A stretch of 57,649 bases of DNA from Actinomycetes bacterium. GTDB lineage: Bacteria > Actinomycetota > Actinomycetes > Streptosporangiales > Streptosporangiaceae. Position numbers and translations under genes: made by a program. Below are positions 10,407 through 57,608 of the stretch, piece by piece (the stretch's first letter is position 1; each line of letters opens with the position of its first letter). A model generated the notes under the pieces. It was not told where the DNA came from. It did no database searches and was given only the letters and a program-made list of their open reading frames with translations. The stretch is from assembly GCA_021793235.1 (NCBI GenBank), contig JAJYTD010000024.1, positions 1-57,649 of the forward strand. Reading direction: 5' to 3'.

Positions 10407-10474
10407 ATCATTCGGTGGTTTTCCGTGCGTCTTACGAGGTGGTAGCGATCGCCTGATCGTCCCAAGGGGGAAAT

Positions 10475-11071
10475 TTGACGACCATCGGACTGGAGCGTAC
10501 CGACGCGGCCGACGACAACGAACTGGACTTCGTGGCGGCTGTGACCCCGTACGCCAATCAGTTGTACCCCACCGCCTTGCGCATGACGCGCAACTCGGCT
10601 GATGCCGAAGACCTCGTGCAGGAGACGTTCGCGAAGGCGTTCGCCAACTTCCACCAGTTCCGTGCGGGTACGAACCTGCGGGCATGGCTGTACCGCATCT
10701 TGACCAACACCTTCATCAACGGCTACCGCAAGCAGCAGCGCGAGCCGCGCCAGGATTCCACGGACGAGATCAAGGACTGGCAGCTCGCCGCCGCCGACGC
10801 GCACGCCTCGACCGGTTCCCGCTCCGCCGAGTCGGAGGTCCTGGACCACCTGCCCAGCTCCGCGATCCGAACGGCGCTCGCCGAGCTGCCCGAGGAGTTC
10901 CGGATCGTGGTCTATCTGATCGACATCGAGGGCTACACCTACAAAGAGGTGGCCGCCCGCATGGACACCCCGCTGGGGACCGTGATGTCGCGACTGCACC
11001 GCGCCCGCCGCCAGCTGCGCGAGCGGCTCGCCGACTACGCCAAGGCCCGGGGTGTGCACGTAGCCTCCTGA
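10475..11071 (+). CDS. ECF-type RNA polymerase sigma-70 family factor (SigE-like)
   Basis: Region 2 ([41 protein letters not shown]) and region 4 ([29 protein letters not shown]) are present. TTG start. No cognate anti-sigma ORF was detected downstream. Confidence 0.85.
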
Positions 11072-23149: not shown

Positions 23150-24973
23150 TTAGAACGCCGACTCGGGGACCTCCATCAGGTCCAGCGAGGTCTTCTCCGT
23201 GATCGCGCGCTCGGCGGACAGGCGCGGCAGGACCTGGTCGGCGAAGAACCGCGCGGCGGCGATCTTGCCGGTGTAGAAGTCCCGATCCGCCTGGCCGGCT
23301 CCGTCGAGGGCGGCCAGCGCGGCCTCGGCCTGGCGCAGCAGCAGCCAGCCCAGGACCACGTCGCCGAATCCCATCAGCAGGCGCGTGGTGTTCAGGCCCA
23401 CCTTGTACAGCTCCCGGCTGTCCTCGGCAGAGCGCATGGCGTCGCCGACCATGATCTCGACGATTCTCTCCACGTCGGCGGCTGCCTCGGCGAGGGCGGC
23501 GCGCTCTTCCTTCAGCTGCCCGTTCCCGGCCTCGCCGGCGGCGAACTCCTTGATCTCGCCGATCAGCTGCCCGAACGCCTGCCCGTTGTTCTTCACGATC
23601 TTGCGGAAGAAGAAGTCCTGCGCCTGGATCGCCGTGGTCCCCTCGTAGAGGGTGTCGATCTTGGCGTCGCGGATGTACTGCTCGATGGGGTAGTCCTGCA
23701 GGTATCCGGAGCCGCCGAGGGTCTGCAGCGACTCGGCCAGCAGCGCATAGGACCGCTCCGAGCCGACGCCCTTGACGATCGGCAGCAGCAGGTCGTTGAG
23801 CGCCTCGACGGAGCTGTGGTCCTCTCCGTTGTGCTGGGCGATCTGCACCGCGTCCTGCTGGGTGGCGGTGTAGATGACCAGGGCACGCAGTGCTTCGGCG
23901 TAGGCCTTCTGGGTCATGAGGCTGCGCCGCACGTCCGGGTGGTGGGTGATGGTCACGCGCGGGGCGGTCTTGTCCGCCATCTGGGTCAGGTCGGCGCCCT
24001 GCTTGCGCTCCTTGGCGTACTCCAGCGCGTTCAGGTAGCCGGTGGACAGGGTGGCGATCGCCTTCGTCCCCACCATCATCCGGGCGTGCTCGATGACGAG
24101 GAACATCTGCCGGATGCCGTCGTGCTTGTCGCCCACCAGGTAGCCCACGGCGGGGTGCTTGGCGCCGAAGGTCAGCTCGCAGGTGGTGGAGGCCTTCAGG
24201 CCCATCTTGTCCTCGACGTTGGTCACGTAGGCGCCGTTGCGCTCGCCCAGCGACCCGTCCTCGTTGACCAGGTATTTCGGCACCAGGAAGAGCGAGAGGC
24301 CCTTCGTTCCGGGCTTGGCCCCCTCCGGGCGGGCCAGCACCAGGTGGAAGATGTTCTCGGTCATGTCCTGCTCGGCCGAGGTGATGAACCGCTTCACACC
24401 TTCGATGTGCCAGGTGCCGTCGCCCTGGTCGATGGCCTTGGTGCGGCCGGCGCCGACATCGGAGCCCGCGTCGGGCTCGGTGAGCACCATGGTGGCGCCC
24501 CAGCCGCGGTCGATGGCCATCTGGGCGAACTTCTTCTGCGCCTCGTTGCCCTCGCGGTAGAGGATGTAGGCGAAGCCCGGACCGGCGGCGTACATGTGGA
24601 CGGCGGGGTTGGCGCCGAGGATCAGTTCCGCGGCGGCCCACACCAGAGAGCGGGGTGCGCCGAGCCCGCCGAGTTCAGGCGGCAGGTCGAGGTTGTACCA
24701 CCCGGCGTCCATGTAGTCCTGGTAGGACTTCTTCAGGCTTTCGGGCAGGGCGACGGTGTTGGTCGCCGGGTCGAACACCGGCGGGTTGCGGTCGGCGTCT
24801 TCGAAGGACTCGGCCACGGATCCAGTGGCGAGCCTGTCGACCTCATCGAGAATGGTGCGAGCCGTGTCCTCGTCCAGCTCCTCGAACGGGCCGGTTCCCA
24901 GCACGTCCTGGCGCTTGAAGACCTCAAAAAGGTTGAACTCGAGGTCACGGAGGTTGCTCTTGTAATGCGTCAT
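23150..24973 (-). CDS. Long-chain acyl-CoA dehydrogenase (FadE5-like, about 607 aa)
   Basis: ACAD domains ([20 protein letters not shown]) with an N-terminal extension, as in mycobacterial FadE5. Confidence 0.9.
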
Positions 24974-25025
24974 GGCGCGCTCCGCTGTGTCGTGGCCGCT
25001 GTGTCAGCACAGGCGATCTACCAAC

Positions 25026-25058
25026 TAGTAACAAGTCAATGTTACTACCGAGTAGTAG
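25026..25058. promoter_or_regulatory. Operator-like palindrome TAGTAACA-agtcaa-TGTTACTA plus AGTAGTAG in the low-GC fadE upstream region
   Basis: Seen 50-85 bp upstream of the fadE start. It shares a 20-mer with the region upstream of the Fe-S oxidoreductase (see findings). Confidence 0.45.
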
Positions 25059-25218
25059 ATCTTTGCCAAGGGGTGTTGTGCACCGTTTCGGTAGAGGCCC
25101 CTGTCTTCCCGTCGAACGCGGCACTCGCCGCGCCATGGGGCGATACCGGCATGCCCGACCAAGGTGACTTTTGGTAACTGCGCATCATTGGATGGATACC
25201 TTCGGTAATTTTCTCCTC

Positions 25219-26079
25219 ATGCCATCGCACCAGCATGAAGTCCTCATTGAGCTGTTCCGGAACAACCTCGCCCTGGCTCCTGAACTGCTCCACGAAGCCC
25301 TGGGCATCGAGGTCCCCGATCACAACAGGGTCTTTTTGGAGAGCTGTGACCTGACCGACGTCAACCCCACCGAGTACCGAGCCGATGTCACCGTCGCTCT
25401 CAGACGGCAGAAGGAGGTGGAGATGGCGATCATCGTGGAAGTCCAACGCAGCCCGGCCAAAAAGAAGAGACTGACCTGGCCGGTCTATGTCGCCACTCTC
25501 CGCGCGAGACTGGGCTGCCCGGTCATACTGATGGTGGTGTCCCCGAAGCAGAAAGTCGCCGATTGGTGCGCTGTCCCGATCGAACTGGGACATCCGGGAT
25601 TCGTCCTGGAGCCCCTCGTCATCGGGCCGGCCCAGGTGCCGGTGGTGACCGACCCCGTCAAGGCACGCGGCCAGCCCGAACTGTCCGTGCTCTCCGCACT
25701 GGCCCACGGCGACAGCCCCGAGGTGCTCGACGCCTTCGGTCACGCCTTGGAATCAGTGGATAGCGATAAGTTCCCCTTCTATTATGACTATGTGTCGGGA
25801 CAGTTGTCCGATGCCGCCCGCGAATACTGGGAGAAGCTCATGGCCGCCGGAACTTACGAATGGCAGACCGATATCGCCCGCAAGTACGTCTCCGAGGGCA
25901 AGGCCGAGGGCAAGGCCGAGGGTGAGGCCAACGCCGTCTTGCTGTTTCTGGCCGCGCGCGGCATCCCGGTTCCGGATGAAGCCCGCGAACGCATCACCGC
26001 TTGCACCGATCTGGGCCAGCTAGAGGTGTGGATCCGGCGTGCCGCCACGGTGGACACGGCTGATGAACTCTTCGACTGA
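25219..26079 (+). CDS. Rpn-family recombination-promoting nuclease / putative transposase (PD-(D/E)XK, DUF4351 C-terminus)
   Basis: N-terminal MPSHQHEVLIELFRN... The core (EVQRS...PVYVATL) and C-terminal region (LFLAARGIPVPDEARERI...LGQLEVWIRRAATVDTADEL) resemble YhgA/Rpn-like proteins. The start was trimmed to Met 25219. Confidence 0.5.
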   Translation: MPSHQHEVLIELFRNNLALAPELLHEALGIEVPDHNRVFLESCDLTDVNPTEYRADVTVALRRQKEVEMAIIVEVQRSPAKKKRLTWPVYVATLRARLGCPVILMVVSPKQKVADWCAVPIELGHPGFVLEPLVIGPAQVPVVTDPVKARGQPELSVLSALAHGDSPEVLDAFGHALESVDSDKFPFYYDYVSGQLSDAAREYWEKLMAAGTYEWQTDIARKYVSEGKAEGKAEGEANAVLLFLAARGIPVPDEARERITACTDLGQLEVWIRRAATVDTADELFD

Positions 26080-26210: not shown

Positions 26211-26984
26211 GTGCGCAATGGTGACGGATCGGGCGAAGCGGGCAGGGCGCTGCTCGACGCGGAGCTTTGGCGGCGGAGCGAGGACGGGCATACCTTCGGG
26301 GCGCTCGTGTGGCAGGCCGGGCCCGGATGGCGGATGATCGCCTCCAGTGTGCTGGGCGGCGGGATCGGGCCGCGGTCGTTCGTGGTGAACGCGCAGGTCT
26401 CGGGTGACTACCGGCGCACCGACCCGCAAGCGCACCTGTCCGGGATCGCGGCGGCGGCCGGCGCCGCGGGCGAGGGCGTCGGCCTGCTGACGGCCGCCGA
26501 CGTCGACCGGGCGCAGTGGGGAGCCGATGGGGGTGTCGAGGTCCTGGCGACGGTCGGGATCGGCCGCCCGACCTGGGCCGCGGACAGCGAGGAGCTGGAC
26601 GAGGCGCGGCTGGGCGACGAACCTGCGGACGGTCCGCTGGGCGGCCAGGGGCCGGGCACCATCAACATCGTGGTGGCGGTCCCGGCCGCCCTGTCCGATG
26701 CCGCCCTGGTCAACGCGGTCGCCACCGCCACAGAAGCCAAAGTGCAGGCGGTCATGCGGGCGGGATACGCCTGCACGGGGACGGCCTCCGACGCGGTGTG
26801 CGTCGCGGCCCGCATCGCCGCCGACGGACTGCCCGAGGAGGCGTTCGGCGGCCCCCGGTCCCGGTGGGGCGCCCGCATCGCCCGCGCGGTGCACGCCGCG
26901 GTCTACGCCGGGGCCCTCGATGACGCCGACCGCCTACGGGCAGACGGCGCCGACCGCGGCCGCGCATATTCGGCGCGGTCCTGA
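26211..26984 (+). CDS. Adenosylcobinamide amidohydrolase (CbiZ)-like protein
   Basis: GTG start right after an in-frame stop. The region MIASSVLGGGIG...VVNAQV...GVGLLTAA...TGTASDAVCVA resembles the CbiZ family by recollection. Not verified. Confidence 0.4.
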   Translation: MRNGDGSGEAGRALLDAELWRRSEDGHTFGALVWQAGPGWRMIASSVLGGGIGPRSFVVNAQVSGDYRRTDPQAHLSGIAAAAGAAGEGVGLLTAADVDRAQWGADGGVEVLATVGIGRPTWAADSEELDEARLGDEPADGPLGGQGPGTINIVVAVPAALSDAALVNAVATATEAKVQAVMRAGYACTGTASDAVCVAARIAADGLPEEAFGGPRSRWGARIARAVHAAVYAGALDDADRLRADGADRGRAYSARS

Positions 26985-27133: not shown

Positions 27134-30100
27134 TCACGGCGAGAAGCGCTCCGCCGCCCTCTCGATCGCCGTCTCCACCGCGCCTACACGGTCGGCCAGC
27201 AGCCCCACGGCGCCCACGGCCCGGCTCATCGGGTCCGCACCGTCACCGCCGAGGGCCTTGGACCGCAGGTAGGCGGCCTTCACCGCCGTCCACCGCTCCG
27301 CCTGCTCGGCGGTCATCGTGCCGCGCAGCTCGGCCAGCTTGAGCAGGTTGGCCTCCGCGTCGGAGGTGAGGGTCTGCGCCTCGCCCAGGTAGTGGTCGTC
27401 GATCGCCGCGGCCAGCTCGGCGTCGTTCATCACCGGCACGATCTTCTCGGCCAGCCGGTTCATGTTCCGGTAGGAGCCCTGCAGCCGGAAGGGCGGTTCG
27501 GTGCGCGACTCCTCCGCTTGTGCCGCCGAAGCGATGTAGGCCTGGTTGTTGGCCAGCACCACCTCCTGCACCGCGACCAGTTTGCGCAGCACCGCCAGAA
27601 TCTGGTCCAGCTCCACCGGTGAATAGGAGTGGGACAGCCGGTCCGGCCGCACCGACTCGTCGCCCTTGGCCAGCCGCACCAGCAGCTCGATGTCGCCGCG
27701 GTCCCGCGTGGACAGCGGTGCCAGGACCGGGTTGGACGTCAGCGCGTTCTCGATGTAGCTCAGCGCGAACAGCTCATCCTTGCCCGACAGCACGTCGCCC
27801 AGGTTGTACACGTCGGCGCGGTTGGCCAGCATGTCCGGGACCCGGAACCGCTGCCCCTCTTCGGTGTAGGGGTTACCGGCCATGCACACCGCGAACCGCT
27901 TGCCACGCAGGTCATAGGTGCGGGTACGGCCGTCCCACACCCCCTCCATCCGACGCTGCCCGTCGCACAGCGAGATGAACTTCTGCAGCAGTTCCGGCGA
28001 CGTGTGCTGGATGTCGTCCAGGTACAGCAGCGTGTTGCTGCCCATCTCCAACGCGAAGGAGATCTTCTCGACCTCCTGGCGCGCCGTCGCGTCAGGCGCA
28101 TCGGCAGGGTCCAGCGAGGTCACGGAGTGGCCCAGCGCCGGCCCGTTGACCTTGACGAACACCAGCCCCAGCCGGCTCGCCACATACTCCATCAGCGTGG
28201 TCTTGCCATACCCCGGCGGGGAGATGAGCAGCAGCAGTCCGCTCTGGTCGGTGCGCCTGCTATCGCCGGCCGCCCCCACCTGCTTGGCGAGGTTGTCGCC
28301 GATCAGCGGCAGATAGACCTCGTCCAGCAGCCGGTTGCGCACGAACCCGCTCATCACCTTCGGCCGGTACTCGTCCAGCCGCAGCCCGCGCCGCTCGCGC
28401 TCCACCAGCTCGTTGCGCCGCCGCTGGTACTCCCGGTAGGCCGGGACCTCCTCAGAGCGGAACCGCCGGGTCCGGGCCAGCAGCTCATCGAGCCGGAACA
28501 CCAGGCGCCGGTCGACGATGCGGGGGTGGGTCCCGAGCAGCCCGCTCACCTCCGCCGACAGCGACGCCGACGAGTCGTGGCGGTGCAGGGCAGAACCGCA
28601 CAGCTCGATCGCCACCGCCTCCGGCAGATCCGCCTCGCTCACCTCCTCTCCGGCCGTGGCCGAAAACGAGTTCAGCCACGCGGTGACGAGCTGGTGCCGG
28701 GCGGCCAGGTCACCACCCAGAGCCCGCAGGTCCTCCGCGAACTCCTGGCGCGACTTCGACCGCGCACCGCCGAGCGCGCGGCGGAACCGGTCCAGCAAGT
28801 CGCGGGCCCCTGCGCTGGTGACGAACCCCGAAGGTGCCCCGGCCACCTCCTCGAACAGGTACTCACCGGCGAGGTCGGTCTCGGCCGCCGCCCCGTCCAG
28901 CCCCGCCTCGGCCAGGAACGCGGCGATGGCCGAACCCAGTTCCGCGTACAGTCCGTTGATCTCCGCCGACCGGCGCGAACCGAAGATCGTCCGCGCCCGC
29001 GCCAGCGACGCCGCCCGCGTCGTCCACGCGGTCCTGGACTCCTCGTCGGTGCCGAACGCCCAGAACAACTGGGCGGCGGCCCGCGCCTGCGGCGGGTAGC
29101 GCAGCAGACCGGCACTGGTGTGCAGCCGCAGCAGCGCTTCGAGGAGCAGAGCGGCGTCGTGGTCGTGCACACCCCGCTCATACCCCTCGTCGTAACGGGT
29201 CTCGGCGACCGCGCGGACCACATCGAGCAGCCCGCCGGCTGCGTCGACGCCCCGCACCGCCGCCTCGTGAAGCACGTCAAGGGTCACCCCCTCGTCGCCG
29301 TTCTCGGCGGCGGCCAGGACCGAGGCGGCCAAATACTCGGCCCGGTACACCTCCGGGGACTCCGACACCAGCAGCCGGTCCCAGAACCGGCGGGTCGCGG
29401 CGAACTCGGCGTCGCGCACCGGCGCCCGGTAGTCCGTCCCGGTGATGCTGATCGCCATCTCGCCGTCGTGCGGCACCATCGTCAGGTCGACCGGTTGGGT
29501 GTTGACGGCGAAGCGGTGCTGCCCCAACCGGATGCTCTCGCCGCCGTCGTCGAACAGGTCGATGCGGTCCCGCAGCGCCCGGCCGGCCTCCTGCCGGGCG
29601 GCCTTGACGCGCCCCTCCAGCTCTTCGGCGCGGACCTGGTCGCCCAGCGAGCGCAGCTCCTCCGTGCTGGCGCGCAGCTTGGCCACCATGGGGTCGGAGG
29701 CGAAGTAGGTGTTCACGTCATCCAGCGAATCCAGCGACATGACCCGCCGGCTCACACTGGTGAGGATCCGCTCAGCGGACTCCACCAGCCGGTCCGCGCG
29801 CCGGGCGCGTTCGTCGAGCAGCGTCTGCTTGCGCGCCGAGAACGCCTCGTAGACGTCCTCCCGCTTGGTGGCCAGATCACCGAGGAAATCGTCGAACTCC
29901 GCGAACCGCGACTCCAGGTTCTCGATCTGCAGCATCAGCCGGCCGAGCTGCTCGTCGCAGCGGTCCGGCGTGTCCGACGCCGCCAGCGCGCCGGTGACGG
30001 CCTGGCCCAGCAGCGCGAACTCCGCGGCGAACTCGGCGCGCCCCTCGGAGTCCAGCAGCTGCCTGCGGCGCGTCTCCAACGTGGCGCGCGCCCGGTTGAT

Positions 30101-32170
30101 CCCCCCTAGGACCGCACCGATCCGCTCCAGGATCTGCGTGCGCACCAGCGCGTCGGCGACGTCAAGAGAACCCACGACCTCGGTGACGATTTCCAGGCCC
30201 TCGGTCTGCTCCGCCAGCCGCTCGCCCACCGGGCCGGCTTCGGCGACCGTCGCGATCCCCTCGGCGTCGGCGACCAGCCGGTCCACCTCGGTGTGGTAGC
30301 CGGCGAAAGCGTCGTCGCCCTGCAGGAAGTCGATGGCGCGCCGCCCCGAGGAGGCGAGTTCGTCGGCGAGCTCGCTGTCCAGCTCATCCACCCGGTCGGT
30401 GTCGACGTAGCGCATCTCCCGCACCGTCACCAGGTGGCCCTGGGCGCGGCGCAGCTCGGCCAGCCGTGACACCCACGCATCGGCCGACCGCAGCGTCTCA
30501 CTCCGCGCGCGCCGGATCAAAGACGTGATCTGTGCCGCCGCCTCCTCCAGGGCGGACTCGGCCTGCCCGGTGAGCGCCTGCACCTTCTCGAACTCGTCCA
30601 GCACCTGCTCCGCGGTGGACCGCACCTCGGTGAGCGGGCCGTACAGGTCGCCGAGTTCCTTGTCGTCCAGCCAGTGGTAGTGGTCGAACACCCGCCGGCA
30701 GGCCGCGATCAGCGCCTCGAACACCGCGGTCGACGGCGACATCTCCGCCACCATCCGGGTCACCGACAGGCAGTCGGAGATCCCCCGCACCAGCTCGGCG
30801 TTGCCGATCCGCTCCAGCGGCCCGGTACCGACCGGCTGGGCGGCCGCGTACACATCGGACACGTAGGGGGTCTGCCACACCTGCATGGGGTGCACCCGGG
30901 TGGGCTCCTCGGAGACCGCCCGGAACACCACGAGCGTTCCGTCGTCGAACAGCGAGTACCCGTGGCACGGGATCGGGGTGGCGACCTCCTTGCGGATGAC
31001 GTTGTAGGGCAGCAGCAGGCTGCGCCCCTCCTGGCGGGCGTGGAACACATAGAGCACGTCCTCGCCGTTGGGCGAGCGGATGACCTGCTCGAACTCCAGG
31101 TCCTTGATTACCGCGTCGAACGTCTTGACCGCGCCGGTGGCCAGGTAGTAGCCGCCGGGGAAGATGATGCCCTGGTCCTCGGGCAGCCTGCGGCACGCCT
31201 GCCCGATCCCGTCCAGCCGGACGACGTCCTTGGTCCTGGTGTTGAACACCAGGTACCGCCACTCGGTCTCGTTGTAGGGCAGGATCCGCAGCAGGATCAG
31301 CGCGCCGACACGGGCGTAGTAGACATCGGCGTCGGCCAGGCTCTGCAGCGGCTCGTCGACGGGTTCGCTGTAGATCCCCTCGCCCACCTCGGTGTTGTTC
31401 TCGACCTTGATGGTCAGGTCTCCGCCGACCGCCTCCACGAACATTTCACCGAGGATGGAGATGTGCGGGTGCCGCCCCAGGACATGGTCCTCGCGCGTGG
31501 CCTCGATCCACTCGAAGTCGTGAGGCGGCGGAAAGACGTGGTCGCGGTCGCCCTGGTTGTCGAGGTATTCGACCTCCCCGGCCGGGCTCACCGACCAGCG
31601 CAGCACCTTGACGTCCTCGGTGCGCGGCCCCGTCTGGAATACCGCCAGCAGCTTGCCCTCGACCCGCCGCAACTGCAGCAGGCGGGTGTCGCGGTAGTAG
31701 CGGTACAGCTCGCTGAAGTCCCGCTCGAACTGCGGGGCGCGCAGCAGCTCCGGGAACTCGCCGTGTCCGGCCGCGTCGAACCGGAACCCGTCTTCGGCGC
31801 CGCCGTCCGCGGCCGCACCGCCACCCGTGCCCCGCACGAACGTGTGCAGCGAGAATACATCGTCGACGGCGGTCTCGGGCTTCAACCCGATGAACACGTT
31901 GTAGCCGAACAGCATGAACCCGCCGACCGAGACGATGTCGCGCGGCACACAGTTGTTCTCGGTCCGGATCCGCTCGGTGCCGATCAGCCGCAGCTCGCTG
32001 CCGCCGAACACCTCCAGGCGTCGGCGGTTCAGCTCCTCGGCCCTTCGGGCGAGCTCCTCAGCCCGGCCGGACAGCCGCTCCCGCAGCACCTCGTAGGTAC
32101 CCGCGTCCAGCCCGCTGGCCGGGGAGGAGCCCGCCGCGCCGGCGGGCTCCTCGGTCACGACATCGGTCAC
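27134..32170 (-). CDS. Giant (1678 aa) multidomain protein with an embedded MoxR/AAA_5-type AAA+ ATPase module, flotillin-associated
   Basis: Walker A LLLISPPGYGKTT, Walker B LLYLDDIQH, sensor/arginine-finger region CMAGNPYTEEGQRFRVPDMLANRADV (MoxR-like). Long alpha-helical segments flank the ATPase module. The start is 7 bp after the flotillin stop. Strong GC3 bias over the full length. Confidence 0.8.
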   Translation of the reverse strand: MTDVVTEEPAGAAGSSPASGLDAGTYEVLRERLSGRAEELARRAEELNRRRLEVFGGSELRLIGTERIRTENNCVPRDIVSVGGFMLFGYNVFIGLKPETAVDDVFSLHTFVRGTGGGAAADGGAEDGFRFDAAGHGEFPELLRAPQFERDFSELYRYYRDTRLLQLRRVEGKLLAVFQTGPRTEDVKVLRWSVSPAGEVEYLDNQGDRDHVFPPPHDFEWIEATREDHVLGRHPHISILGEMFVEAVGGDLTIKVENNTEVGEGIYSEPVDEPLQSLADADVYYARVGALILLRILPYNETEWRYLVFNTRTKDVVRLDGIGQACRRLPEDQGIIFPGGYYLATGAVKTFDAVIKDLEFEQVIRSPNGEDVLYVFHARQEGRSLLLPYNVIRKEVATPIPCHGYSLFDDGTLVVFRAVSEEPTRVHPMQVWQTPYVSDVYAAAQPVGTGPLERIGNAELVRGISDCLSVTRMVAEMSPSTAVFEALIAACRRVFDHYHWLDDKELGDLYGPLTEVRSTAEQVLDEFEKVQALTGQAESALEEAAAQITSLIRRARSETLRSADAWVSRLAELRRAQGHLVTVREMRYVDTDRVDELDSELADELASSGRRAIDFLQGDDAFAGYHTEVDRLVADAEGIATVAEAGPVGERLAEQTEGLEIVTEVVGSLDVADALVRTQILERIGAVLGGINRARATLETRRRQLLDSEGRAEFAAEFALLGQAVTGALAASDTPDRCDEQLGRLMLQIENLESRFAEFDDFLGDLATKREDVYEAFSARKQTLLDERARRADRLVESAERILTSVSRRVMSLDSLDDVNTYFASDPMVAKLRASTEELRSLGDQVRAEELEGRVKAARQEAGRALRDRIDLFDDGGESIRLGQHRFAVNTQPVDLTMVPHDGEMAISITGTDYRAPVRDAEFAATRRFWDRLLVSESPEVYRAEYLAASVLAAAENGDEGVTLDVLHEAAVRGVDAAGGLLDVVRAVAETRYDEGYERGVHDHDAALLLEALLRLHTSAGLLRYPPQARAAAQLFWAFGTDEESRTAWTTRAASLARARTIFGSRRSAEINGLYAELGSAIAAFLAEAGLDGAAAETDLAGEYLFEEVAGAPSGFVTSAGARDLLDRFRRALGGARSKSRQEFAEDLRALGGDLAARHQLVTAWLNSFSATAGEEVSEADLPEAVAIELCGSALHRHDSSASLSAEVSGLLGTHPRIVDRRLVFRLDELLARTRRFRSEEVPAYREYQRRRNELVERERRGLRLDEYRPKVMSGFVRNRLLDEVYLPLIGDNLAKQVGAAGDSRRTDQSGLLLLISPPGYGKTTLMEYVASRLGLVFVKVNGPALGHSVTSLDPADAPDATARQEVEKISFALEMGSNTLLYLDDIQHTSPELLQKFISLCDGQRRMEGVWDGRTRTYDLRGKRFAVCMAGNPYTEEGQRFRVPDMLANRADVYNLGDVLSGKDELFALSYIENALTSNPVLAPLSTRDRGDIELLVRLAKGDESVRPDRLSHSYSPVELDQILAVLRKLVAVQEVVLANNQAYIASAAQAEESRTEPPFRLQGSYRNMNRLAEKIVPVMNDAELAAAIDDHYLGEAQTLTSDAEANLLKLAELRGTMTAEQAERWTAVKAAYLRSKALGGDGADPMSRAVGAVGLLADRVGAVETAIERAAERFSP

Positions 32171-32177
32171 CTATCCG

Positions 32178-34187
32178 TCACCGCTTCACACCGTCGAGGG
32201 CGGCCACGGGCGCCTCGGCGACGCCGAGGTGCTGCGCGGTTTTCAACAGCTCCTGCATCTTGCCCGCGTCAGGGCCGCCCGCGTTGATGAGCTTCACCAG
32301 CAGCGCCGACAGCGTGAGGTTCTTGATGTCGGCGGTGTCCACCGACCCCAGCACCCGGGAGATGTCGTCGGCGAAGCTGCCCGAACCGTCCAGCCAGGAC
32401 CCGGCCAGGGACTGGGCCACATCGGAGTTCTCCACGAACCCGTCCACGGCCTTGCCCATCCCGATGGAGTTGACCATCCGGTCGAAGAACATGCCGTCGC
32501 CGCCGACGATGTTGATGTCGGCCTTCTCCAGGCCGGTCGCCAGCACCGACGCCTGGGCCTCGGCGACCTGGCGGTGTACGTCGATCCCGGCGAGCCGGAT
32601 GTCCTTCTCGGTCTCCAGGCGCAGGCGGTACTCTTCGTGCTCGCGGCTGATCTCGTCGAGCGCGGCCATCGCGCCGGCCTTCTCGTTGAGCCCCTCGGCT
32701 TCGGCCTTGAGCTTCTCGCGGATGGCTTCGGCTTCGGCGAGCGCCTTCTCGCGCGCCACAGCGGCCTCCGCGCGGCCGACCTTATCGATCGCCTCGGCGT
32801 CCTGCTCGCGCACCTGGACCTCGGCCAGGCCCGCGGCGGCGGCTTCGGCCTGCAGCCCTTCGGCCAGACGGATCTTGGCGCGGGTGTCGAGTTCGGCGGC
32901 CTGCTGGCGGGCTTCGGCCAGGGTCATCTCCTCGGCGGCCTTGTGCTTGGCCGCCTCCTCGGCGGCTTCGGCCGCCTTGATGTCCTTGACCAGGTTCTCC
33001 TGCGCTTCGGCCTCGGCGTGGATGATGACCGCCTGCCGCTGGCGCTCGGCCTCCTCGACCGCGCGCAGCCGCTTGATGTTCTCCTCCTGCTCAGCGACGG
33101 TCTTCTCGACCGCGATCCGCTCCCGGATCACCTCGGCGACCTCGCGCTTTTCGCCCTCGACCTCCTTGTCCTTGGCGATACGGGACAGTTCGGTCTCGCG
33201 CTCGCGGCCGATGACCTCCAGCAGCCGATCCTTTTCGATGCGTTCGGTCTCGATGGAGATGACGCGTTCGCGGTTCTTCTCCGCGACGGCGATCTCCCGC
33301 TTCTGGTTCTCCTGCTGCACGCCCAGCTGCTCGTCGGTGCGCAGGTGCGCCTGCTGCGCCTTGAGCCGCTCCTCGGCCTGGACCCGGGCGGTCTCGGCCT
33401 CTTCGCGGGCCCGGATGATCTCGATCTCCCGCTTGGCCTTGGCCTCGGCTTCCTCCCGGCGCCGCTCCAGCTCCGCGAGGGTCTCCGCGGCCTCGGTGTC
33501 CTGCCGGTCGATCTCCTTGCGGCGGTCGTTCTCCAGCTCGTTGGTCTGCTTGTGCTGCGCGGAGGTGAGTTCGGTGATCTTACTGATGCCCTGGGCGTCG
33601 AGGATGTTGTCCCGGTCGAGCTGGCTCAGCGGGGTCTGTTCGAGGTAGTCGATCGCGGCGTCCTCAAGGATGTACCCGTTGAGGTCGGTGCCGATGAGGG
33701 CGACGATCCGGTCCCGGAACTCGTCGCGCTTGGTGTAGAGGTCCTCGAAGTCGAAGTGCTTGCCGACGGTCTTGAGCGCCTCGGAGAACTTGGCGTTGAA
33801 CAGCTGCTGCAAGGTCTCCTGGTCGCTGGCCCGGTCGGTGCCGATGGACTGGGCGACCTTGATGACGTCTTCGAGGGTCTTGTTGACGCGGACGAAGAAG
33901 GTGATGCTGATGTCCGCGCGGATGTTGTCCTGGCAGATCAGCCCTTCGCGGCCGCTGCGGTTGATCTCCATGGTCTTGACCGAGATGTCCATCACCTCGG
34001 CCTTGTGCAGCACGGGAAGAACGACAGCACCGGTGAAGGTCACGTCGACTTTTTTGACCTTGGAGATGATCAGCGCCCGGCCCTGCTCGACTTTGCGGAA
34101 GAGTCGGGTGACCACGAATAGCAGGGCGATGACGATGAGGAGTGCGACGGCGAGCAGGATGCCGAACGCGGGAGCGATGATGTCCAT
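32178..34187 (-). CDS. Flotillin-like SPFH/Band-7 protein (YqiK/FloT-like, 669 aa)
   Basis: N-terminal TM helix, an SPFH domain, then about 300 aa of E/A/R/K-rich coiled-coil and a C-terminal flotillin tail. Confidence 0.85.
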   Translation of the reverse strand: MDIIAPAFGILLAVALLIVIALLFVVTRLFRKVEQGRALIISKVKKVDVTFTGAVVLPVLHKAEVMDISVKTMEINRSGREGLICQDNIRADISITFFVRVNKTLEDVIKVAQSIGTDRASDQETLQQLFNAKFSEALKTVGKHFDFEDLYTKRDEFRDRIVALIGTDLNGYILEDAAIDYLEQTPLSQLDRDNILDAQGISKITELTSAQHKQTNELENDRRKEIDRQDTEAAETLAELERRREEAEAKAKREIEIIRAREEAETARVQAEERLKAQQAHLRTDEQLGVQQENQKREIAVAEKNRERVISIETERIEKDRLLEVIGRERETELSRIAKDKEVEGEKREVAEVIRERIAVEKTVAEQEENIKRLRAVEEAERQRQAVIIHAEAEAQENLVKDIKAAEAAEEAAKHKAAEEMTLAEARQQAAELDTRAKIRLAEGLQAEAAAAGLAEVQVREQDAEAIDKVGRAEAAVAREKALAEAEAIREKLKAEAEGLNEKAGAMAALDEISREHEEYRLRLETEKDIRLAGIDVHRQVAEAQASVLATGLEKADINIVGGDGMFFDRMVNSIGMGKAVDGFVENSDVAQSLAGSWLDGSGSFADDISRVLGSVDTADIKNLTLSALLVKLINAGGPDAGKMQELLKTAQHLGVAEAPVAALDGVKR

Positions 34188-47783: not shown

Positions 47784-50396
<2,613 letters not shown>

Positions 50397-50550
50397 GTGT
50401 CGCCGCCCCCTTCATGCGAGCATCGCTATGTGGTTGTGCAGAGTGTCTTCTCCCCTGGCTGGGGCGCCCGCGCAGCACCAAGGCCGCGGGCCCATCCCCC
50501 GGTTGGGCCCGGCATGCGGGCACGGAGGGCCGGGACGGCTCCCGGCGTGG

Positions 50551-50982
50551 TCACCGGTCCTGTTCGGGCGGCGGAGAGGTGTTGAAGAGCGTCACCGTGG
50601 TCCGCCGAACCGGGATGAGTTCGCCGCCCTGGGACTGGGCGGAGGTGCGGCGGGCGACCGCGCTGCGCGCCGCCTGCAGTTCGTTGTGCAGATGGAAGAG
50701 GTGGTCGCGCAGTTCCGCCACCTCGCGCTGGAGCTCCAGGATGCGCTTGATCCCGGCGAGGTTGATGCCCTCCTCCTGGGACAGCCGCTGCACCTCGCGG
50801 AGCATCTGGATGTCGCGCATCGAGTAGCGCCGGCCCCGTCCCGATGCCCGGCCCGGAGAGACCAGGCCGAGCCGGTCGTACTGGCGCAGCGTCTGCGGAT
50901 GCAGTCCGGACAGTTCAGCGGCGACGGAGATCACATAGACCGGGATGTCGTCACCGAACGGTGGATTGGTCATCGCATTCAC
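50551..50982 (-). CDS. hspR: Heat-shock repressor HspR (MerR family)
   Basis: MerR HTH ([29 protein letters not shown]). Located at the end of the dnaK operon; its start overlaps the dnaJ stop. Confidence 0.85.
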
Positions 50983-52136
50983 ATCCCTTTCGCCCGCGCT
51001 TCGAGTCCGTTGCGCGGATCCTGGTCCGCTGTGGCGGCGCGGAACTTCTCCAGGGCCTCCCTGGCGTCGTTGTTCAGGTTCTTCGGTACCGCCACCTCGA
51101 TGGTGACGAGCATGTCACCCTTTGTTCCGTCACGCCGTGTCGACCCTTTGCCCCGGACCCGGAACGTGCGCCCGTTCGGGGTGCCCGGGGGGATCTTCAC
51201 GGTGACGGGAAGTCCATTGAGCGTCGGCACCCGCACATCGGCGCCGAGCACTGCCTCGGGGAAGGTCACCGGGACGGTGATCGTCAGGTTGTCGCCGGTC
51301 TTGCCGAACACGGGGTGCGGCTGCACATGTACCACCACATAGAGGTCTCCGGCCGGTCCGCCGTGCTCGCCCGGCGCACCCTTGCCCTTGATTCGGATCC
51401 GCTGCCCGTCGGACACGCCGGCCGGGATCCGCGCCTGCACCGTCCGGGAGCTCTTGCCCCGGCCGCTGCCCTGGCAGGTGGGGCACGGGTCGTCGACGAC
51501 GAGCCCGCGGCCCTTGCATTCGCTGCACGGCTCCGACAACGAGAAGCCGCCCAGGTTCGTGTTCTCATGTCCGGTCCCCGCGCATTTGGGGCACACCCGG
51601 GGACTGCTTCCGGCGTTGGCGCCGGTGCCCTTGCACGTGGGGCAGGCGGCATCGCTGCTGAGCCGGAACGACCGGGTGACTCCGGTGGCCGCCTCGTCGA
51701 AGGTCAGCCGGGTCTCGGTCTCCACGTCAGCGCCGCGGCGGGCCTGCGTCGTGGTCCGTCCTCGGCCGCCGAACAGCCCGCCGAACAAGTCGCTCAGCCG
51801 CTCGCCGCCACCGCCGCTACCGCCGGCTCCGCCTCCGCCGAACAGGTCGCCGAGGTCGAACCCGCCTGCCCCGGTCTGTCCGCCCGGCCGGTAGGAGCTC
51901 CCGAACAGCGACCGCGCGTTGTCGTACTCCTTGCGCCGTTTCTCGTCGGAAAGGACGGAGTAGGCCTCGGAGATCTCCTTGAAGCGCTCCTCGGCCTTGG
52001 GGTCGCTCTTGTTGGCGTCGGGGTGGTTCTCGCGCGCGAGCTTGCGATAGGACTGCTTGATCTCGTCCTGCGTGGCCGTCTTTGAGACTCCGAGGACCTT
52101 GTAGTAGTCCTTCTCCAGGTAGTCCTTGGTGCTCAT
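50979..52136 (-). CDS. dnaJ: Chaperone DnaJ
   Basis: J domain ([31 protein letters not shown]), G/F region, four CxxCxGxG zinc-finger repeats. Trimmed to Met 52136. Confidence 0.9.
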
Positions 52137-52262
52137 CGACGTCTGCCTTCTCCCGCTTCGCGCTCGCTGTGCTTCTTGGCTGGTAGGGGCGGTCTCCAAC
52201 TGCCGGGAGGCCGGGTGGGCCCGCCCCGGGCGCCGTGTGGGCGTCCGGGGCGGGACCGACTG

Positions 52263-53003: not shown

Positions 53004-53038
53004 GTCGCTGACCCTCCTTGACTTCCGCTTTTCCCGGG

Positions 53039-54886
<1,848 letters not shown>

Positions 54887-54957
54887 GAGTACGTCCTCCG
54901 TCAGAGTTGAGTCTTACGGGCGTAAGTTTGCTTCGCCTTACGTTCAGTGTCAAATCA

Positions 54958-54978
54958 CTTGAGTCGACTCGGCTCAAT
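54958..54978. promoter_or_regulatory. HAIR-like HspR operator candidate CTTGAGT-N7-GCTCAAT upstream of dnaK (additional CTTACG/CGTAAG repeats nearby)
   Basis: Seen 70-90 bp upstream of the dnaK start. The HAIR consensus is CTTGAGT-N7-ACTCAAG. Confidence 0.4.
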
Positions 54979-55349
54979 GTTGTTTCGTATGTCTGTAACG
55001 GAAGAGATCTTGAGGTTGTTCCCGGTTGTCCGTACGAGTCTCGCGGACCTTACGCGCGCCGTCTGCTGAGCCACGCGCGAACCAGGGGTATCTCAGGGCC
55101 GATCCGGACCCGGCTCAGGGGGCGGGGCGGCTGCTACTGGTGGAACCCCTGATGTGCGGTGCAACGGAATCTGGGAGCCTCGCCTGAGGAATTGGGACCC
55201 CGCGTGCTCTTCTGGTCGCAGCGCTCAGTAACCTGGTAAGTCGCCTGAGCAGGGCAATTGTCTGTCTTATACGGCTCAGGGTTCCGTCGCGGATGGCCGG
55301 TCCGCTGCGGCGGTAGGCCGACCGTGCGGTCGGCGCGGTGATCCACCGA

Positions 55350-55369
55350 CTACTACTGGCTAGTAACAT
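55350..55369. promoter_or_regulatory. 20-mer CTACTACTGGCTAGTAACAT shared with the fadE upstream region
   Basis: Seen 62 bp upstream of the Fe-S oxidoreductase start. The near-identical 20-mer CTACTACTCGGTAGTAACAT lies on the coding strand of fadE at 25039-25058. Confidence 0.45.
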
Positions 55370-55430
55370 AGGGTGGAGCTCCGTTGTGTGGCGCAGCGGA
55401 GTACGACAGCAGGATGGGAGGCCGCGGGCG

Positions 55431-57608
55431 ATGCTCAACATCGTTCTGGGGGTCATCACGACCGTCTTCGCCGCGGTCGGGGTCGCCATGTTCGCACTCG
55501 GCATCCGCCAGATGGTGCGAACCGTGGGCCTCGGCCGCCCGGTGGAAGCGGACCGCAAAGGGCCCTTCGGTCGGCGTCTGACGAATACGCTGATCGAGAC
55601 GCTCGGGCACACACGCATGCTCAAGTGGCGCTGGATCGGCGTCGCGCACTGGTTCGTCATGGTCTCGTTCCCGGCGCTCGCGTTCACGGTGGTCGAGGCG
55701 CACGGCGAGGTGTGGGACCCCTACTTCCACCTGCCGATCATCTACGACTGGGCGGTCTACGGCCTGTTCATCGAGGCCATCGCCGCGCTGAGCCTGGTCT
55801 CCATCCTGGGCCTGATCATTTACCGCCAGGTCAAAGGGGCCAAGCGGCTGGGGCGCGCCTCCCGCTTCGAGAACTCCCGGCACTGGCAGGCCTACTACGT
55901 CGAGGCCTACATCCTCGCCCTGGTCGTCTCGATCTTCGTGATCCGCGGCTTCAAGGTCGCGCTCGGCGACTTCGCGTTCCCCGTGTGGGCCACTCCGCTG
56001 TCGCACGCGATGGGCGCCGTCCTGCCGGCCAGCGAGGCCGGCCTGTCCCTGGTGGCCGCGTTCAAGCTGATCATCTCGTGGCTGTTCTTCATGGTCCTGG
56101 CCATGGTCTTGACCATGGGCATCGGCTGGCACCGGTTCACCGCGCCGTTCAACATCTACTTCAAGCGCAATGACGACGGCAGCCCCGCACTGGGCGGCGC
56201 CAAGCCGATGCTCGGCAACGACGGCAAGCCCCTCGACTTCGAGGAGGCCGACCCCGACGAGGACCCGTTCGGTGTCGGCAAGATCGAGGAGTTCACCTGG
56301 AAGGGCCTGCTCGACTTCACCACCTGCACCGAGTGCGGCCGGTGCCAGTCGCAGTGCCCTGCCTGGAACACCGGAAAGCCGCTCTCCCCCAAGAAGCTGG
56401 TCATGGACCTGCGGGAGCACGCCTACGCCAAGGCGCCCTACCTGCTGCAGGGGGTCACCGCCGAGTCCCTCGCCGAGCAGCAGGACGACAGCCACGCCGG
56501 GATGGACGTCCTGGCCCTCCTGGAGAAGCCCCTGGTGGGCACCGAGGAGGAGGGCGGTGTCATCCACCCCGACGTCCTGTGGTCCTGCACCAACTGCGGC
56601 GCCTGCGTCGAGCAGTGCCCGGTCGACATCGAGCACATCGACCACATCCTCGACATGCGCCGCTACCAGGTGATGATCGAGTCGAGCTTCCCCTCCGAGG
56701 CGAACACGCTGCTGAAGAACCTGGAGAACAAGGGCAACCCGTGGGGCATGAGCGAGGAGAAGCGCCTCGACTGGATCGCTGAGCTCGACTTCGAGGTGCC
56801 CGTGGTCGAGGACAAGCTCCCCGAAGGGACGGAGTACCTGTTCTGGGTCGGCTGCGCCGGCGCCCTGGAGGACCGCGCCAAGAAGACCACAAAGGCCATC
56901 GCCGAGCTGCTGCACATGGCCGACGTCAAGTTCGCGGTGCTCGGCGGAATGGAGGCCTGCACCGGCGATCCGGCCCGCCGCCTGGGCATGGAGTACGTCT
57001 TCCAGATGCTGGCCCAGCAGAACGTCGAGACGCTCAACGAAGCCGGTGTCACCAAGATCGTGGCCAGCTGCCCGCACTGCTTCAACACGCTCGGCAACGA
57101 GTACCCGCAGCTCGGCGGCGAGTACGAGGTCGTCCACCACAGCCAGTTGCTGGCCAAGCTCGTGGAGGAGGGCCGGCTCACCCCGGTCCAGCCGATCGAG
57201 GAGAACATCACCTACCACGACCCGTGCTTCCTGGGGCGGCACAACAAGGTCTACACCCCGCCCCGCGACATCATGGCGCAGGTGCCCGGCATCACCACCA
57301 AGGAGATGCACCGGCACAAGGAGCGCGGCTTCTGCTGCGGCGCGGGCGGTGCGCGGATGTGGATGGAGGAGCGCATCGGCAAGCGCATCAACACCGAGCG
57401 CGTGGACGAGGCGCTGACGACCGACCCCGACACCGTCTCCACCGCGTGCCCGTTCTGTCAGGTGATGCTCGGCGACGCGATCAACGAGAAGAAGTCCAAG
57501 GGTGAGGCCAAGGAGACCTTGGAGGTCGTGGACGTCTCCCAGCTCCTGCTCCGCTCGGTCAAGGGCGAGGCCCCGACCGAGGAGGACCCGGAGAAGGAGA
57601 ACGCCTGA
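55431..57608 (+). CDS. Membrane-anchored (Fe-S)-binding oxidoreductase (N-terminal multi-TM domain + 2x[4Fe-4S] + CCG domains; heterodisulfide-reductase-like)
   Basis: N-terminal TM helices. Ferredoxin-type CxxCxxCxxxCP motifs (CTECGRCQSQCP; CTNCGACVEQCP). Two Cys-rich CCG regions. An RBS GGGAGG precedes the ATG at 55431. Confidence 0.8.
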   Translation: MLNIVLGVITTVFAAVGVAMFALGIRQMVRTVGLGRPVEADRKGPFGRRLTNTLIETLGHTRMLKWRWIGVAHWFVMVSFPALAFTVVEAHGEVWDPYFHLPIIYDWAVYGLFIEAIAALSLVSILGLIIYRQVKGAKRLGRASRFENSRHWQAYYVEAYILALVVSIFVIRGFKVALGDFAFPVWATPLSHAMGAVLPASEAGLSLVAAFKLIISWLFFMVLAMVLTMGIGWHRFTAPFNIYFKRNDDGSPALGGAKPMLGNDGKPLDFEEADPDEDPFGVGKIEEFTWKGLLDFTTCTECGRCQSQCPAWNTGKPLSPKKLVMDLREHAYAKAPYLLQGVTAESLAEQQDDSHAGMDVLALLEKPLVGTEEEGGVIHPDVLWSCTNCGACVEQCPVDIEHIDHILDMRRYQVMIESSFPSEANTLLKNLENKGNPWGMSEEKRLDWIAELDFEVPVVEDKLPEGTEYLFWVGCAGALEDRAKKTTKAIAELLHMADVKFAVLGGMEACTGDPARRLGMEYVFQMLAQQNVETLNEAGVTKIVASCPHCFNTLGNEYPQLGGEYEVVHHSQLLAKLVEEGRLTPVQPIEENITYHDPCFLGRHNKVYTPPRDIMAQVPGITTKEMHRHKERGFCCGAGGARMWMEERIGKRINTERVDEALTTDPDTVSTACPFCQVMLGDAINEKKSKGEAKETLEVVDVSQLLLRSVKGEAPTEEDPEKENA

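What the first reader, a model, noticed from the sequence alone, without database searches (positions are those of the whole stretch)
25026..25058. Shared 20-mer operator/promoter element upstream of fadE and of a distant Fe-S oxidoreductase gene
CTACTACTCGGTAGTAACAT (coding-strand orientation of fadE, 25039-25058) and CTACTACTGGCTAGTAACAT (55350-55369) are both about 62-66 bp upstream of their start codons in the same orientation. Each is an imperfect CTACTA/TAGTAA palindrome. The fadE copy is embedded in a larger TAGTAACA-N6-TGTTACTA palindrome inside a short low-GC tract. This looks like a common regulator site, for example a TetR/FadR-like lipid-catabolism regulon linking an acyl-CoA dehydrogenase and a membrane Fe-S, heterodisulfide-reductase-like oxidoreductase.
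Basis: seen in the sequence. Interest (0 to 1): 0.55.

Follow-up and report, generated by a model that had tools for sequence, protein, structure and literature searches.

The report
FdmR-type fatty-acid repressor operators
The shared 20-mer is real and is most likely the binding site of a fatty-acid-responsive TetR repressor (the FdmR/Rv0238 type known from mycobacteria), placed on the promoters of two linked beta-oxidation genes, fadE5 and etfD; it extends a known regulon to a Nocardiopsis-like bacterium and is not a new kind of element.

Summary
Two 20-mers, identical at 18 of 20 positions, lie 61-65 nt upstream of two start codons; none is expected by chance.

The genes are orthologues of mycobacterial FadE5 (acyl-CoA dehydrogenase) and EtfD (membrane Fe-S ETF:menaquinone oxidoreductase). 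These catalyse consecutive steps of beta-oxidation electron transfer. The window comes from a Nocardiopsaceae MAG.

The functional core is a dyad, TACT-N4-AGTA (wider form GTTAC-N6-GTAAC).

- All 80 fadE5 loci from Nocardiopsis, Actinomadura, Streptosporangium, Nonomuraea, Streptomyces and Pseudonocardia have the dyad within 300 nt upstream, and 70 have two. No site scores in 578 kb of flanks.
- 46 of about 78 metagenomic etfD loci, not used to train the matrix, have one site upstream.
- M. smegmatis and a slow-growing Mycobacterium have the same sites at fadE5.
- The published ChIP-seq motif of M. tuberculosis Rv0238 (FdmR), AtCTTACTccggAGTAAGaT, shares the core. That core with one mismatch allowed picks exactly the two reader sites.

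Best explanation: an FdmR-type, acyl-CoA-released repressor that occludes both promoters. The regulator gene is not in the window, and neither binding nor the ligand was tested. Verdict: new member of a known kind, modest interest.

The parts
25039..25058 (-). In gene orientation it reads CTAC-TAC-TCGGTA-GTA-ACAT. The conserved dyad is TACT-CGGT-AGTA.
   Evidence: Scores 20.0 bits with the position weight matrix. The block CTAC..G.AGTAACAT is invariant in 7 Nocardiopsis-group sequences (A1). It is one of only two window matches to the Rv0238 core TTACT-N4-AGTAA with at most 1 mismatch; 0.05 are expected.
25015..25034 (-). Operator O2 of the fadE5 promoter. In gene orientation it reads TTGT-TAC-TAGTTG-GTA-GATC. 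Its centre is 24 bp downstream of the O1 centre.
   Evidence: Scores 21.8 bits. TTGTTAC...GTAG is invariant in A1. A second site 24-29 bp from the first is present in most of the 80 fadE5 loci.
25039..25047 (-). -10-like sequence inside O1: TAGTAACAT, containing TAGTAA and TAACAT (TANNNT). This assignment is inferred, not mapped.
   Evidence: In 65 of 68 two-site fadE5 loci, the upstream site is followed by TANNNT on the gene strand, starting at the T of the right GTA. This is true for only 7 of 68 downstream sites. A strict sigma-70 scan found no canonical promoter.
25064..25069 (-). -35-like TTGGCA, lying 16-19 nt upstream of the -10 candidates. Inferred.
   Evidence: TGGC is invariant in the Nocardiopsis-group alignment A1. 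No transcription start data are available.
23150..24973 (-). fadE5 orthologue: broad-specificity acyl-CoA dehydrogenase, 607 aa.
   Evidence: Pfam Acyl-CoA_dh_M/_1/_C domains. Full-length match to the M. smegmatis and M. tuberculosis FadE5 structures 6kpt and 6kse, E about 1e-250.
55350..55369 (+). Single operator of the etfD promoter: CTAC-TAC-TGGCTA-GTA-ACAT. The dyad is TACT-GGCT-AGTA. The right half overlaps the -10-like TAGTAA/TAACAT.
   Evidence: Scores 23.9 bits. TAC..GCTAGTAACAT is invariant in 7 Nocardiopsaceae dnaK-etfD intergenic regions (A2). It matches the Rv0238 core with 1 mismatch.
55431..57608 (+). etfD orthologue: membrane Fe-S / CCG-domain ETF:menaquinone oxidoreductase, 725 aa.
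   Evidence: Pfam CCG x2 plus 4Fe-4S dicluster domains. Matches PDB 9ojn_A, M. smegmatis EtfD, at E 2e-216 (paper PMC13083937). It is 100% identical to a protein of a Nocardiopsaceae MAG.

Best explanation
The two 20-mers are operators for one dimeric TetR-family repressor of the FdmR (M. tuberculosis Rv0238) type.

The protein recognises the dyad TACT-N4-AGTA (extended form GTTAC-N6-GTAAC). At fadE5, two operators 24 bp apart cover the -10 region (O1) and the early transcribed region (O2). At etfD, one operator covers the -10 region.

Bound repressor blocks RNA polymerase. When long-chain acyl-CoA accumulates, the repressor leaves the DNA. The first dehydrogenase of beta-oxidation (FadE5) and the membrane enzyme that passes its electrons from ETF to menaquinone (EtfD) are then induced together.

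Shown here:
- the sites exist and are non-random;
- they are deeply conserved at both gene families;
- they match the Rv0238 ChIP-seq motif.

Inferred:
- which protein binds in this organism;
- the overlap with the real transcription start;
- the ligand.
For: (1) Chance is excluded.

(2) The genes are functionally coupled as FadE5 -> ETF -> EtfD.

(3) Phylogenetic footprints exist within Nocardiopsaceae at both promoters (A1; A2).

(4) All 80 of 80 fadE5 loci from six or more actinomycete genera carry the dyad within 300 nt upstream, and 70 carry two. No site of 12 bits or more occurs in 578 kb of flanking DNA.

(5) An independent test set of etfD loci, not used to build the matrix, gives 46 of about 78 loci with one site 17-226 nt upstream, and a single hit elsewhere in 381 kb.

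(6) Positions 7 and 12 of the site are strictly Y and R, although they were not imposed. This is typical of protein contacts.

(7) Mycobacterial fadE5 promoters carry the same sites. M. smegmatis has AAGTTACTGAACGGTATAGT and CAGTTACTGGTGGGTAAC. A slow grower has GTGTTACTGGTGGGTAAC, plus TTCTTACTCTGCAGTAAGTT in the fadA2/fabG4 intergenic region.

(8) The Rv0238 ChIP-seq motif is AtCTTACTccggAGTAAGaT. Rv0238 peaks lie at -34 to +13 of the primary TSSs of fabG4/fadA2, etfB (Rv3029c) and fadE24, all repressed on induction (PMC4301838 supplements).

(9) Rv0238 is FdmR, a long-chain acyl-CoA-responsive repressor of fatty-acid degradation genes, reported as a key regulator of fadE5 (PMC12403877; PMC9262360).

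(10) O1 overlaps a TANNNT hexamer on the gene strand in 65 of 68 loci.
Against: - No FdmR homologue is encoded in the window or in any fetched non-mycobacterial locus (tblastn). Its presence in Nocardiopsaceae could not be checked.
- The literal 16-bp M. tuberculosis palindrome CTTACT-N4-AGTAAG matches the window sites only with 3 mismatches, which is not significant on its own. Only the 10-position core matches well.
- Rv0244c (fadE5) and Rv0338c (etfD) are not among the few Rv0238 peaks listed in the stored part of the 2015 table.
- A strict sigma-70 scan finds no promoter at either site. The promoter overlap is inferred from TANNNT statistics only.
- About one third of the etfD loci lack the site.
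- The position weight matrix was built with the TAC/GTA core imposed, so scores at fadE5 loci are partly circular.
Confidence: 0.75

Rival explanations
1. A shared operator, but bound by a different regulator. This could be a paralogous TetR (for example AccR-like) or a member of another family that recognises a similar 5-N6-5 palindrome. The regulon logic would be the same, with a different protein and possibly a different ligand.
For: No FdmR homologue could be located for this organism. Actinomycete TetR paralogues use look-alike operators, for example AccR with GTTAA-N6-TTAAC (PMC10933834). The outermost bases differ from the M. tuberculosis consensus, GTTAC against CTTAC.
Against: The AccR pattern has no match in the window even with 2 mismatches. 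The same motif sits at mycobacterial fadE5 and fadA2/fabG4 promoters, where Rv0238 binding and repression were measured. Mycobacterial fadE5 sites themselves use GTTAC.
Confidence: 0.15
2. The similarity reflects a shared promoter type only, such as recognition elements of an alternative sigma factor, with no repressor involved.
For: The right end of both 20-mers (TAGTAACAT) looks like a -10 element and is the most conserved part (A1, A2). O1 sites overlap TANNNT in 65 of 68 loci.
Against: The conserved positions are dyad-symmetric. The second fadE5 operator, O2, has the dyad but no -10-like hexamer on the gene strand in 61 of 68 loci. The motif equals a ChIP-seq motif of a TetR protein.
Confidence: 0.04
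3. The palindromes act at the RNA level, as hairpins in the 5' leaders, rather than as DNA-binding sites.
For: O2 and perhaps part of O1 are probably transcribed. Palindromes can fold.
Against: The arms are only 3-5 nt, their sequence is fixed, and the 4-6 nt between them varies freely. This is the pattern of a protein site, not of a stem kept by covariation. No Rfam family matches the etfD leader.
Confidence: 0.03
4. Chance resemblance of two AT-rich intergenic stretches.
For: None, apart from both lying in lower-GC intergenic DNA.
Against: Zero matches are expected in shuffles. The sites are conserved across families and orders at both genes.
Confidence: 0.01

Closest known systems
FdmR (M. 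marinum) / Rv0238 (M. tuberculosis): TetR-family, long-chain acyl-CoA-responsive repressor of fatty-acid degradation genes
   Same: - The operator core is the same, TTACT-N4-AGTAA.
- The sites lie on core promoters of beta-oxidation and electron-transfer genes: fadE5, fadA2/fabG4, etfB and fadE24 in mycobacteria; fadE5 and etfD here.
- The two-operator layout at fadE5 is also present in M. smegmatis.
   Different: - The organism is a Nocardiopsaceae (Streptosporangiales) MAG, not a mycobacterium.
- The regulator gene is not near fadE5 here. In the slow-growing Mycobacterium locus it lies about 5 kb from fadE5.
- The outer half-site base is G (GTTAC) rather than C (CTTAC).
- Whether etfD is a reported FdmR target could not be checked, because Dong et al. 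2021 is not held.
- Binding and ligand were not tested here.
Bacillus FadR (YsiA): TetR-family acyl-CoA-responsive repressor of the fad regulon (B. halodurans structure paper PMC5397183, listed)
   Same: The logic is the same: a TetR repressor released by long-chain acyl-CoA. From my own knowledge of Matsuoka et al. 2007, not checked here, it controls acyl-CoA dehydrogenase, etfBA and a CCG-domain Fe-S oxidoreductase (fadF), so it also couples a dehydrogenase to an EtfD-like protein.
   Different: It belongs to a different phylum and a different TetR subfamily. As recalled, and not tested here, the operator sequence is different. This is an analogue, not a family member.
AccR of Streptomyces avermitilis: TetR repressor of short-chain acyl-CoA metabolism
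   Same: 16-bp operator with a 5-N6-5 architecture, GTTAA-N6-TTAAC, upstream of acyl-CoA dehydrogenase and enoyl-CoA hydratase genes in an actinomycete (PMC10933834).
   Different: The half-site differs (GTTAA/TTAAC against GTTAC/GTAAC). There is no match in the window with up to 2 mismatches. Its targets are leucine and short-chain acyl-CoA genes, not fadE5/etfD.

Membership tests
FdmR / Rv0238 regulon (operator sites) | The site matches the experimentally derived Rv0238 binding motif. | tested here: met
   The ChIP-seq motif is AtCTTACTccggAGTAAGaT (PMC4301838 supplementary file 5). Its core TTACT-N4-AGTAA, with at most 1 mismatch, hits only 25042-25055 and 55353-55366 in the window; 0.05 are expected. 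The full 16-mer matches only with 3 mismatches.
FdmR / Rv0238 regulon (operator sites) | The same motif is present at the orthologous promoter in mycobacteria, where FdmR is the reported regulator. | tested here: met
   M. smegmatis fadE5 upstream has two sites (14.7 and 23.6 bits). The slow-grower locus has one at fadE5 (25.5 bits) and one in the fadA2/fabG4 intergenic region (16.9 bits). FdmR is reported as a key regulator of fadE5.
FdmR / Rv0238 regulon (operator sites) | The target genes belong to fatty-acid beta-oxidation or its electron transfer chain. | tested here: met
   FadE5 orthologue. EtfD orthologue.
FdmR / Rv0238 regulon (operator sites) | The sites overlap the core promoter, as expected for repression by occlusion. 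| tested here: inconclusive
   TANNNT overlaps O1 in 65 of 68 loci. Rv0238 peaks lie at -34 to +13 of TSSs in M. tuberculosis. There is no TSS for this organism, and a strict sigma-70 scan was negative.
FdmR / Rv0238 regulon (operator sites) | An Rv0238 orthologue (TetR_N + TetR_C_46) is encoded in the same genome. | tested here: inconclusive
   None was found in the 57.6-kb window or in 168 fetched loci other than the mycobacterial one. The rest of the MAG could not be searched. The representative search gave unnamed full-length relatives at 40-52% identity.
FdmR / Rv0238 regulon (operator sites) | DNA binding is released by long-chain acyl-CoA. | not testable with these tools
   This needs EMSA with and without acyl-CoA. 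The property is reported for FdmR.
AccR operator (S. avermitilis) | GTTAA-N6-TTAAC palindrome. | tested here: not met
   0 matches in the window with up to 2 mismatches.
Bacillus FadR (YsiA) operator | FadR-box sequence upstream of fad genes. | not tested
   The consensus is recalled from memory only. It is treated as a functional analogue, not as membership.

The most novel reading that the evidence does not exclude
The FdmR-type operator is not a mycobacterial speciality. It may be a pan-actinomycete regulon signature, with a conserved two-operator fadE5 promoter and etfD as a core target in Streptomyces, Streptosporangiales and Pseudonocardiales. That would identify the so far uncharacterised master repressor of beta-oxidation in antibiotic-producing actinomycetes, and would show that the acyl-CoA dehydrogenase step and its respiratory outlet are co-regulated from a single site type.
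Probability: 0.55. Interest if true: 0.45.

Novelty: new member of a known kind. Interest (0 to 1): 0.3.

Why it matters
FdmR controls whether mycobacteria burn or store fatty acids and is needed for virulence. EtfD is a candidate drug target as the sole link between beta-oxidation and respiration.

The same operator sits in front of both fadE5 and etfD in a distant actinomycete, and across Streptomyces and relatives. This suggests an ancient, compact regulon.

It gives a ready position weight matrix for predicting beta-oxidation control in industrial actinomycetes, where removing this repression, or tightening it, could change acyl-CoA precursor supply for polyketides and triacylglycerols.

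For this window alone it is a sound but ordinary annotation: two promoters, one repressor.

Tried and rejected
- The primary FdmR paper (PMC8072231) is not held. Papers citing it gave the gene identity (Rv0238) but no motif. The motif came from the Minch et al. supplements instead.
- Text searches for the motif string found only unrelated proteobacterial motifs and AccR. A search for a characterised Streptomyces beta-oxidation TetR found none.
- Looking for the regulator:
  - Pfam scans of 27 window ORFs found AraC-type regulators and an ECF sigma factor but no TetR.
  - tblastn with the mycobacterial FdmR orthologue against all loci hit only its own locus.
  - The search for homologous proteins returned only mycobacterial orthologues.
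  - The search of protein representatives gave unnamed relatives, and the listing of cluster members did not name them.
- Exact look-up of the window FadE5 protein found nothing.
- A strict sigma-70 and terminator scan found nothing at either site.
- My first dyad guesses were wrong. TACTA-N4-TAGTA gave 0 hits. TACTAC-N3-GTAGTA hit both sites but is not the conserved register.
- The literal M. tuberculosis 16-mer is not significant on its own.
- I tried to find a mycobacterial etfD among the metagenome loci to check its promoter. The best was only 71% identical to M. smegmatis EtfD, so this remains untested.
- Rfam found nothing in the etfD leader.

Full report
**Observation.**
CTACTACTCGGTAGTAACAT is at 25039-25058 on the minus strand, and CTACTACTGGCTAGTAACAT is at 55350-55369 on the plus strand. 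A degenerate search allowing three mismatches returns only these two sites, with none expected in shuffles. Both face their downstream genes, with 65 and 61 nt between the site and the ATG. The TAGTAACA-N6-TGTTACTA palindrome (25026-25047) and the low-GC tract (0.49 against a window mean of 0.68) are also real.

**The genes and the organism.**
- The minus-strand gene 23150-24973 (607 aa) aligns end to end with the FadE5 structures of M. smegmatis and M. tuberculosis, E about 1e-250.
- The plus-strand gene 55431-57608 (725 aa) has two CCG domains and a 4Fe-4S dicluster domain. It matches PDB 9ojn, the M. smegmatis EtfD, at E 2e-216.
- EtfD is the membrane enzyme thought to pass electrons from ETF to menaquinone. 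It is needed for growth on fatty acids, and the published assay reconstitutes FadE5 -> ETF -> EtfD (PMC13083937). The two genes are therefore consecutive parts of one pathway.
- The EtfD protein is 100% identical to one from a Nocardiopsaceae MAG (contig DAHVRE010000079.1). FadE5 is 89% identical to that of Nocardiopsis trehalosi.

**What the conserved element is.**
Aligning the fadE5 upstream region with six Nocardiopsis-group genomes shows one conserved island in otherwise unalignable DNA: (C/T)TGGC-N-CTACTnGGTAGTAACATTGACTTGTTACnnnnnnGTAGATC (A1). The conserved register is CTAC-TCGGTA-GTAAC, a TACT-N4-AGTA dyad.

A second dyad, GTTAC-TAGTTG-GTAG (window 25015-25034), follows with centres 24 bp apart.

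The dnaK-etfD intergenic region of six other Nocardiopsaceae shows the same pattern, with an invariant TAC..GCTAGTAACAT block (A2).

**Breadth.**
- All 80 fadE5 loci retrieved from GTDB species genomes have at least one exact TAC-N6-GTA within 300 nt upstream, and 70 have two, mostly 24-29 bp apart. These loci cover Nocardiopsis, Actinomadura, Spirillospora, Microbispora, Nonomuraea, Streptosporangium, Streptomyces, Pseudonocardia, Streptoalloteichus and several MAGs.
- A 20-nt matrix built from these sites shows constraints that were not imposed. Position 7 is always Y, position 12 always R, the centre is R-Y, and the flanks are A/T-rich.
- In the window the matrix scores only three places: O2 at 21.8 bits, O1 at 20.0 and the etfD site at 23.9. 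The next best scores 8.3.
- In 578 kb of fadE5 flanks there is no other hit of 12 bits or more.
- As an independent test, 46 of about 78 usable etfD loci from metagenomes have one site 17-226 nt upstream. These loci were not used for training. There is a single hit elsewhere in 381 kb.
- The upstream fadE5 operator is followed by TANNNT on the gene strand, starting at the T of the right GTA, in 65 of 68 two-site loci. The downstream operator shows this in only 7 of 68. This suggests that O1 overlaps the -10 hexamer and that O2 lies in the early transcribed region.

**Which regulator.**
- FdmR, the TetR-family long-chain-acyl-CoA-responsive repressor of fatty-acid degradation described in M. 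marinum, is Rv0238 in M. tuberculosis (PMC12403877). It is described as a key regulator of fadE5 (PMC9262360). It is one of five TetR regulators conserved in all mycobacteria, including M. leprae (PMC4482099).
- I rebuilt the M. smegmatis FadE5 sequence from the PDB alignment and fetched two mycobacterial loci.
  - M. smegmatis has two sites upstream of fadE5: AAGTTACTGAACGGTATAGT, overlapping a TATAGT -10, and CAGTTACTGGTGGGTAACTT.
  - A slow-grower locus with the M. tuberculosis gene order (aftD-lpqI-TetR...htdX-fabG4-fadA2-fadE5) has GTGTTACTGGTGGGTAACTT upstream of fadE5 and TTCTTACTCTGCAGTAAGTT between fadA2 and fabG4.
- The supplements of the M. tuberculosis DNA-binding network paper give the Rv0238 ChIP-seq motif as AtCTTACTccggAGTAAGaT. 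They place Rv0238 peaks at -34 to +13 of the primary TSSs of Rv0242c/Rv0243 (fabG4/fadA2), Rv3029c (etfB) and Rv3139 (fadE24). All are repressed when Rv0238 is induced (PMC4301838).

**Mechanism proposed.**
A dimeric FdmR-type TetR protein binds each dyad. At fadE5, two dimers on O1 and O2 cover the -10 region and the start of the transcript. At etfD, one dimer covers the -10 region. Long-chain acyl-CoA releases the repressor and both genes are induced together.

The shown steps are site existence, non-randomness, conservation at both gene families, and identity with the Rv0238 motif. The inferred steps are the binding protein in this organism, the promoter overlap, and the ligand.

**Weak points.**
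- No TetR gene lies in the window, and no FdmR homologue lies in any non-mycobacterial locus I hold. I could not query the rest of the MAG. The representative search shows full-length relatives at 40-52% identity, but without names.
- The literal 16-bp M. tuberculosis palindrome fits the window sites only with three mismatches, because the outer base is G rather than C. Mycobacterial fadE5 sites also use GTTAC.
- The stored part of the 2015 table does not list Rv0244c or Rv0338c among Rv0238 peaks.
- A strict sigma-70 consensus scan finds nothing.
- One third of the etfD loci have no site.
- The -35/-10 spacing is ambiguous: TTGGCA-16-TAGTAA or TTGGCA-19-TAACAT.

**Rivals.**
- A look-alike paralogous TetR is the only serious rival. 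AccR of S. avermitilis uses GTTAA-N6-TTAAC, but that pattern is absent from the window.
- A pure promoter element is unlikely, because O2 has the dyad without a -10 hexamer.
- An RNA hairpin is unlikely, because the arm sequence is fixed while the spacer varies.
- Chance is excluded.

**Novelty and score.**
The regulator type, its motif and its role are known from mycobacteria, and the FadE5-ETF-EtfD pathway is known. What is added is that a Nocardiopsaceae genome, and apparently most mycelial actinomycetes, carry the same operator at fadE5 (in a conserved double arrangement) and at etfD. I found no paper describing this outside mycobacteria, but I could not read the primary FdmR paper. I rate it a new member of a known kind, with interest 0.3.

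Noticed in passing
window 55380-55400 (etfD 5' leader, between the operator and the Shine-Dalgarno GGGAGG): A conserved hairpin, TCCGTTGTG-TGG-CGCAGCGGA, is present in all 7 Nocardiopsaceae etfD leaders. Four to six pairs show compensatory changes, for example GGTG/CACC to GATG/CATC to GGCG/CGCC. There is no Rfam match. It could be an mRNA-stability or attenuation element, independent of the operator.
   Followed up: partly
window 25171-26079 (+), divergent from fadE5: A 302-aa ORF (probable start ATG 25195) has no Pfam hit at E<=1e-3. It sits in a patch of lower GC (0.49-0.62) between fadE5 and a CbiZ-like gene (26211-26984). It may be an inserted gene. The Nocardiopsis relatives do not align upstream of the operator block.
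   Followed up: partly
L163:12623-12642 (same MAG contig, about 400 nt beyond the window's 3' end): A weak dyad, AGGCTACGTTTGAGTAGCAT (10.6 bits), lies about 116 nt upstream of a small 81-aa minus-strand gene just downstream of etfD. It has G at position 7, which is never seen in trained sites, so it may be chance.
   Followed up: no
window 10429-10448: GTCTTACGAGGTGGTAGCGA has an exact TAC-N6-GTA about 27 nt upstream of an ECF sigma factor ORF (10475-11071), but scores only 8.3 bits. It is probably chance. Another exact core, at 48360, lies inside clpB.
   Followed up: partly
window 47784-55431; L164-L168: etfD is transcribed divergently from the dnaK-grpE-dnaJ-hspR-clpB heat-shock cluster. 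This dnaK/etfD head-to-head arrangement is conserved in Nocardiopsis, Spinactinospora, Streptomonospora and Marinactinospora. In N. sediminis, fadE5 and etfD lie only about 12 kb apart on one contig, against 30 kb here.
   Followed up: partly
L161:9909-9954 and L162:9932-9951: M. smegmatis keeps both fadE5 operators, with O1 over a TATAGT -10. The slow-growing Mycobacterium locus keeps only the downstream one, after a TATATT -10. The double-operator architecture has therefore been simplified in that lineage.
   Followed up: partly
L106-L160 (about 32 of 78 metagenomic etfD loci): About one third of the etfD loci have no FdmR-type site within 250 nt upstream. I did not determine whether etfD is an internal operon gene there or is under different control.
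   Followed up: no
window 27134-34187 (-): Two very large adjacent genes, 1678 aa and a 669-aa SPFH/Band-7 protein, lie between the two regulated loci. I did not examine them.
   Followed up: no
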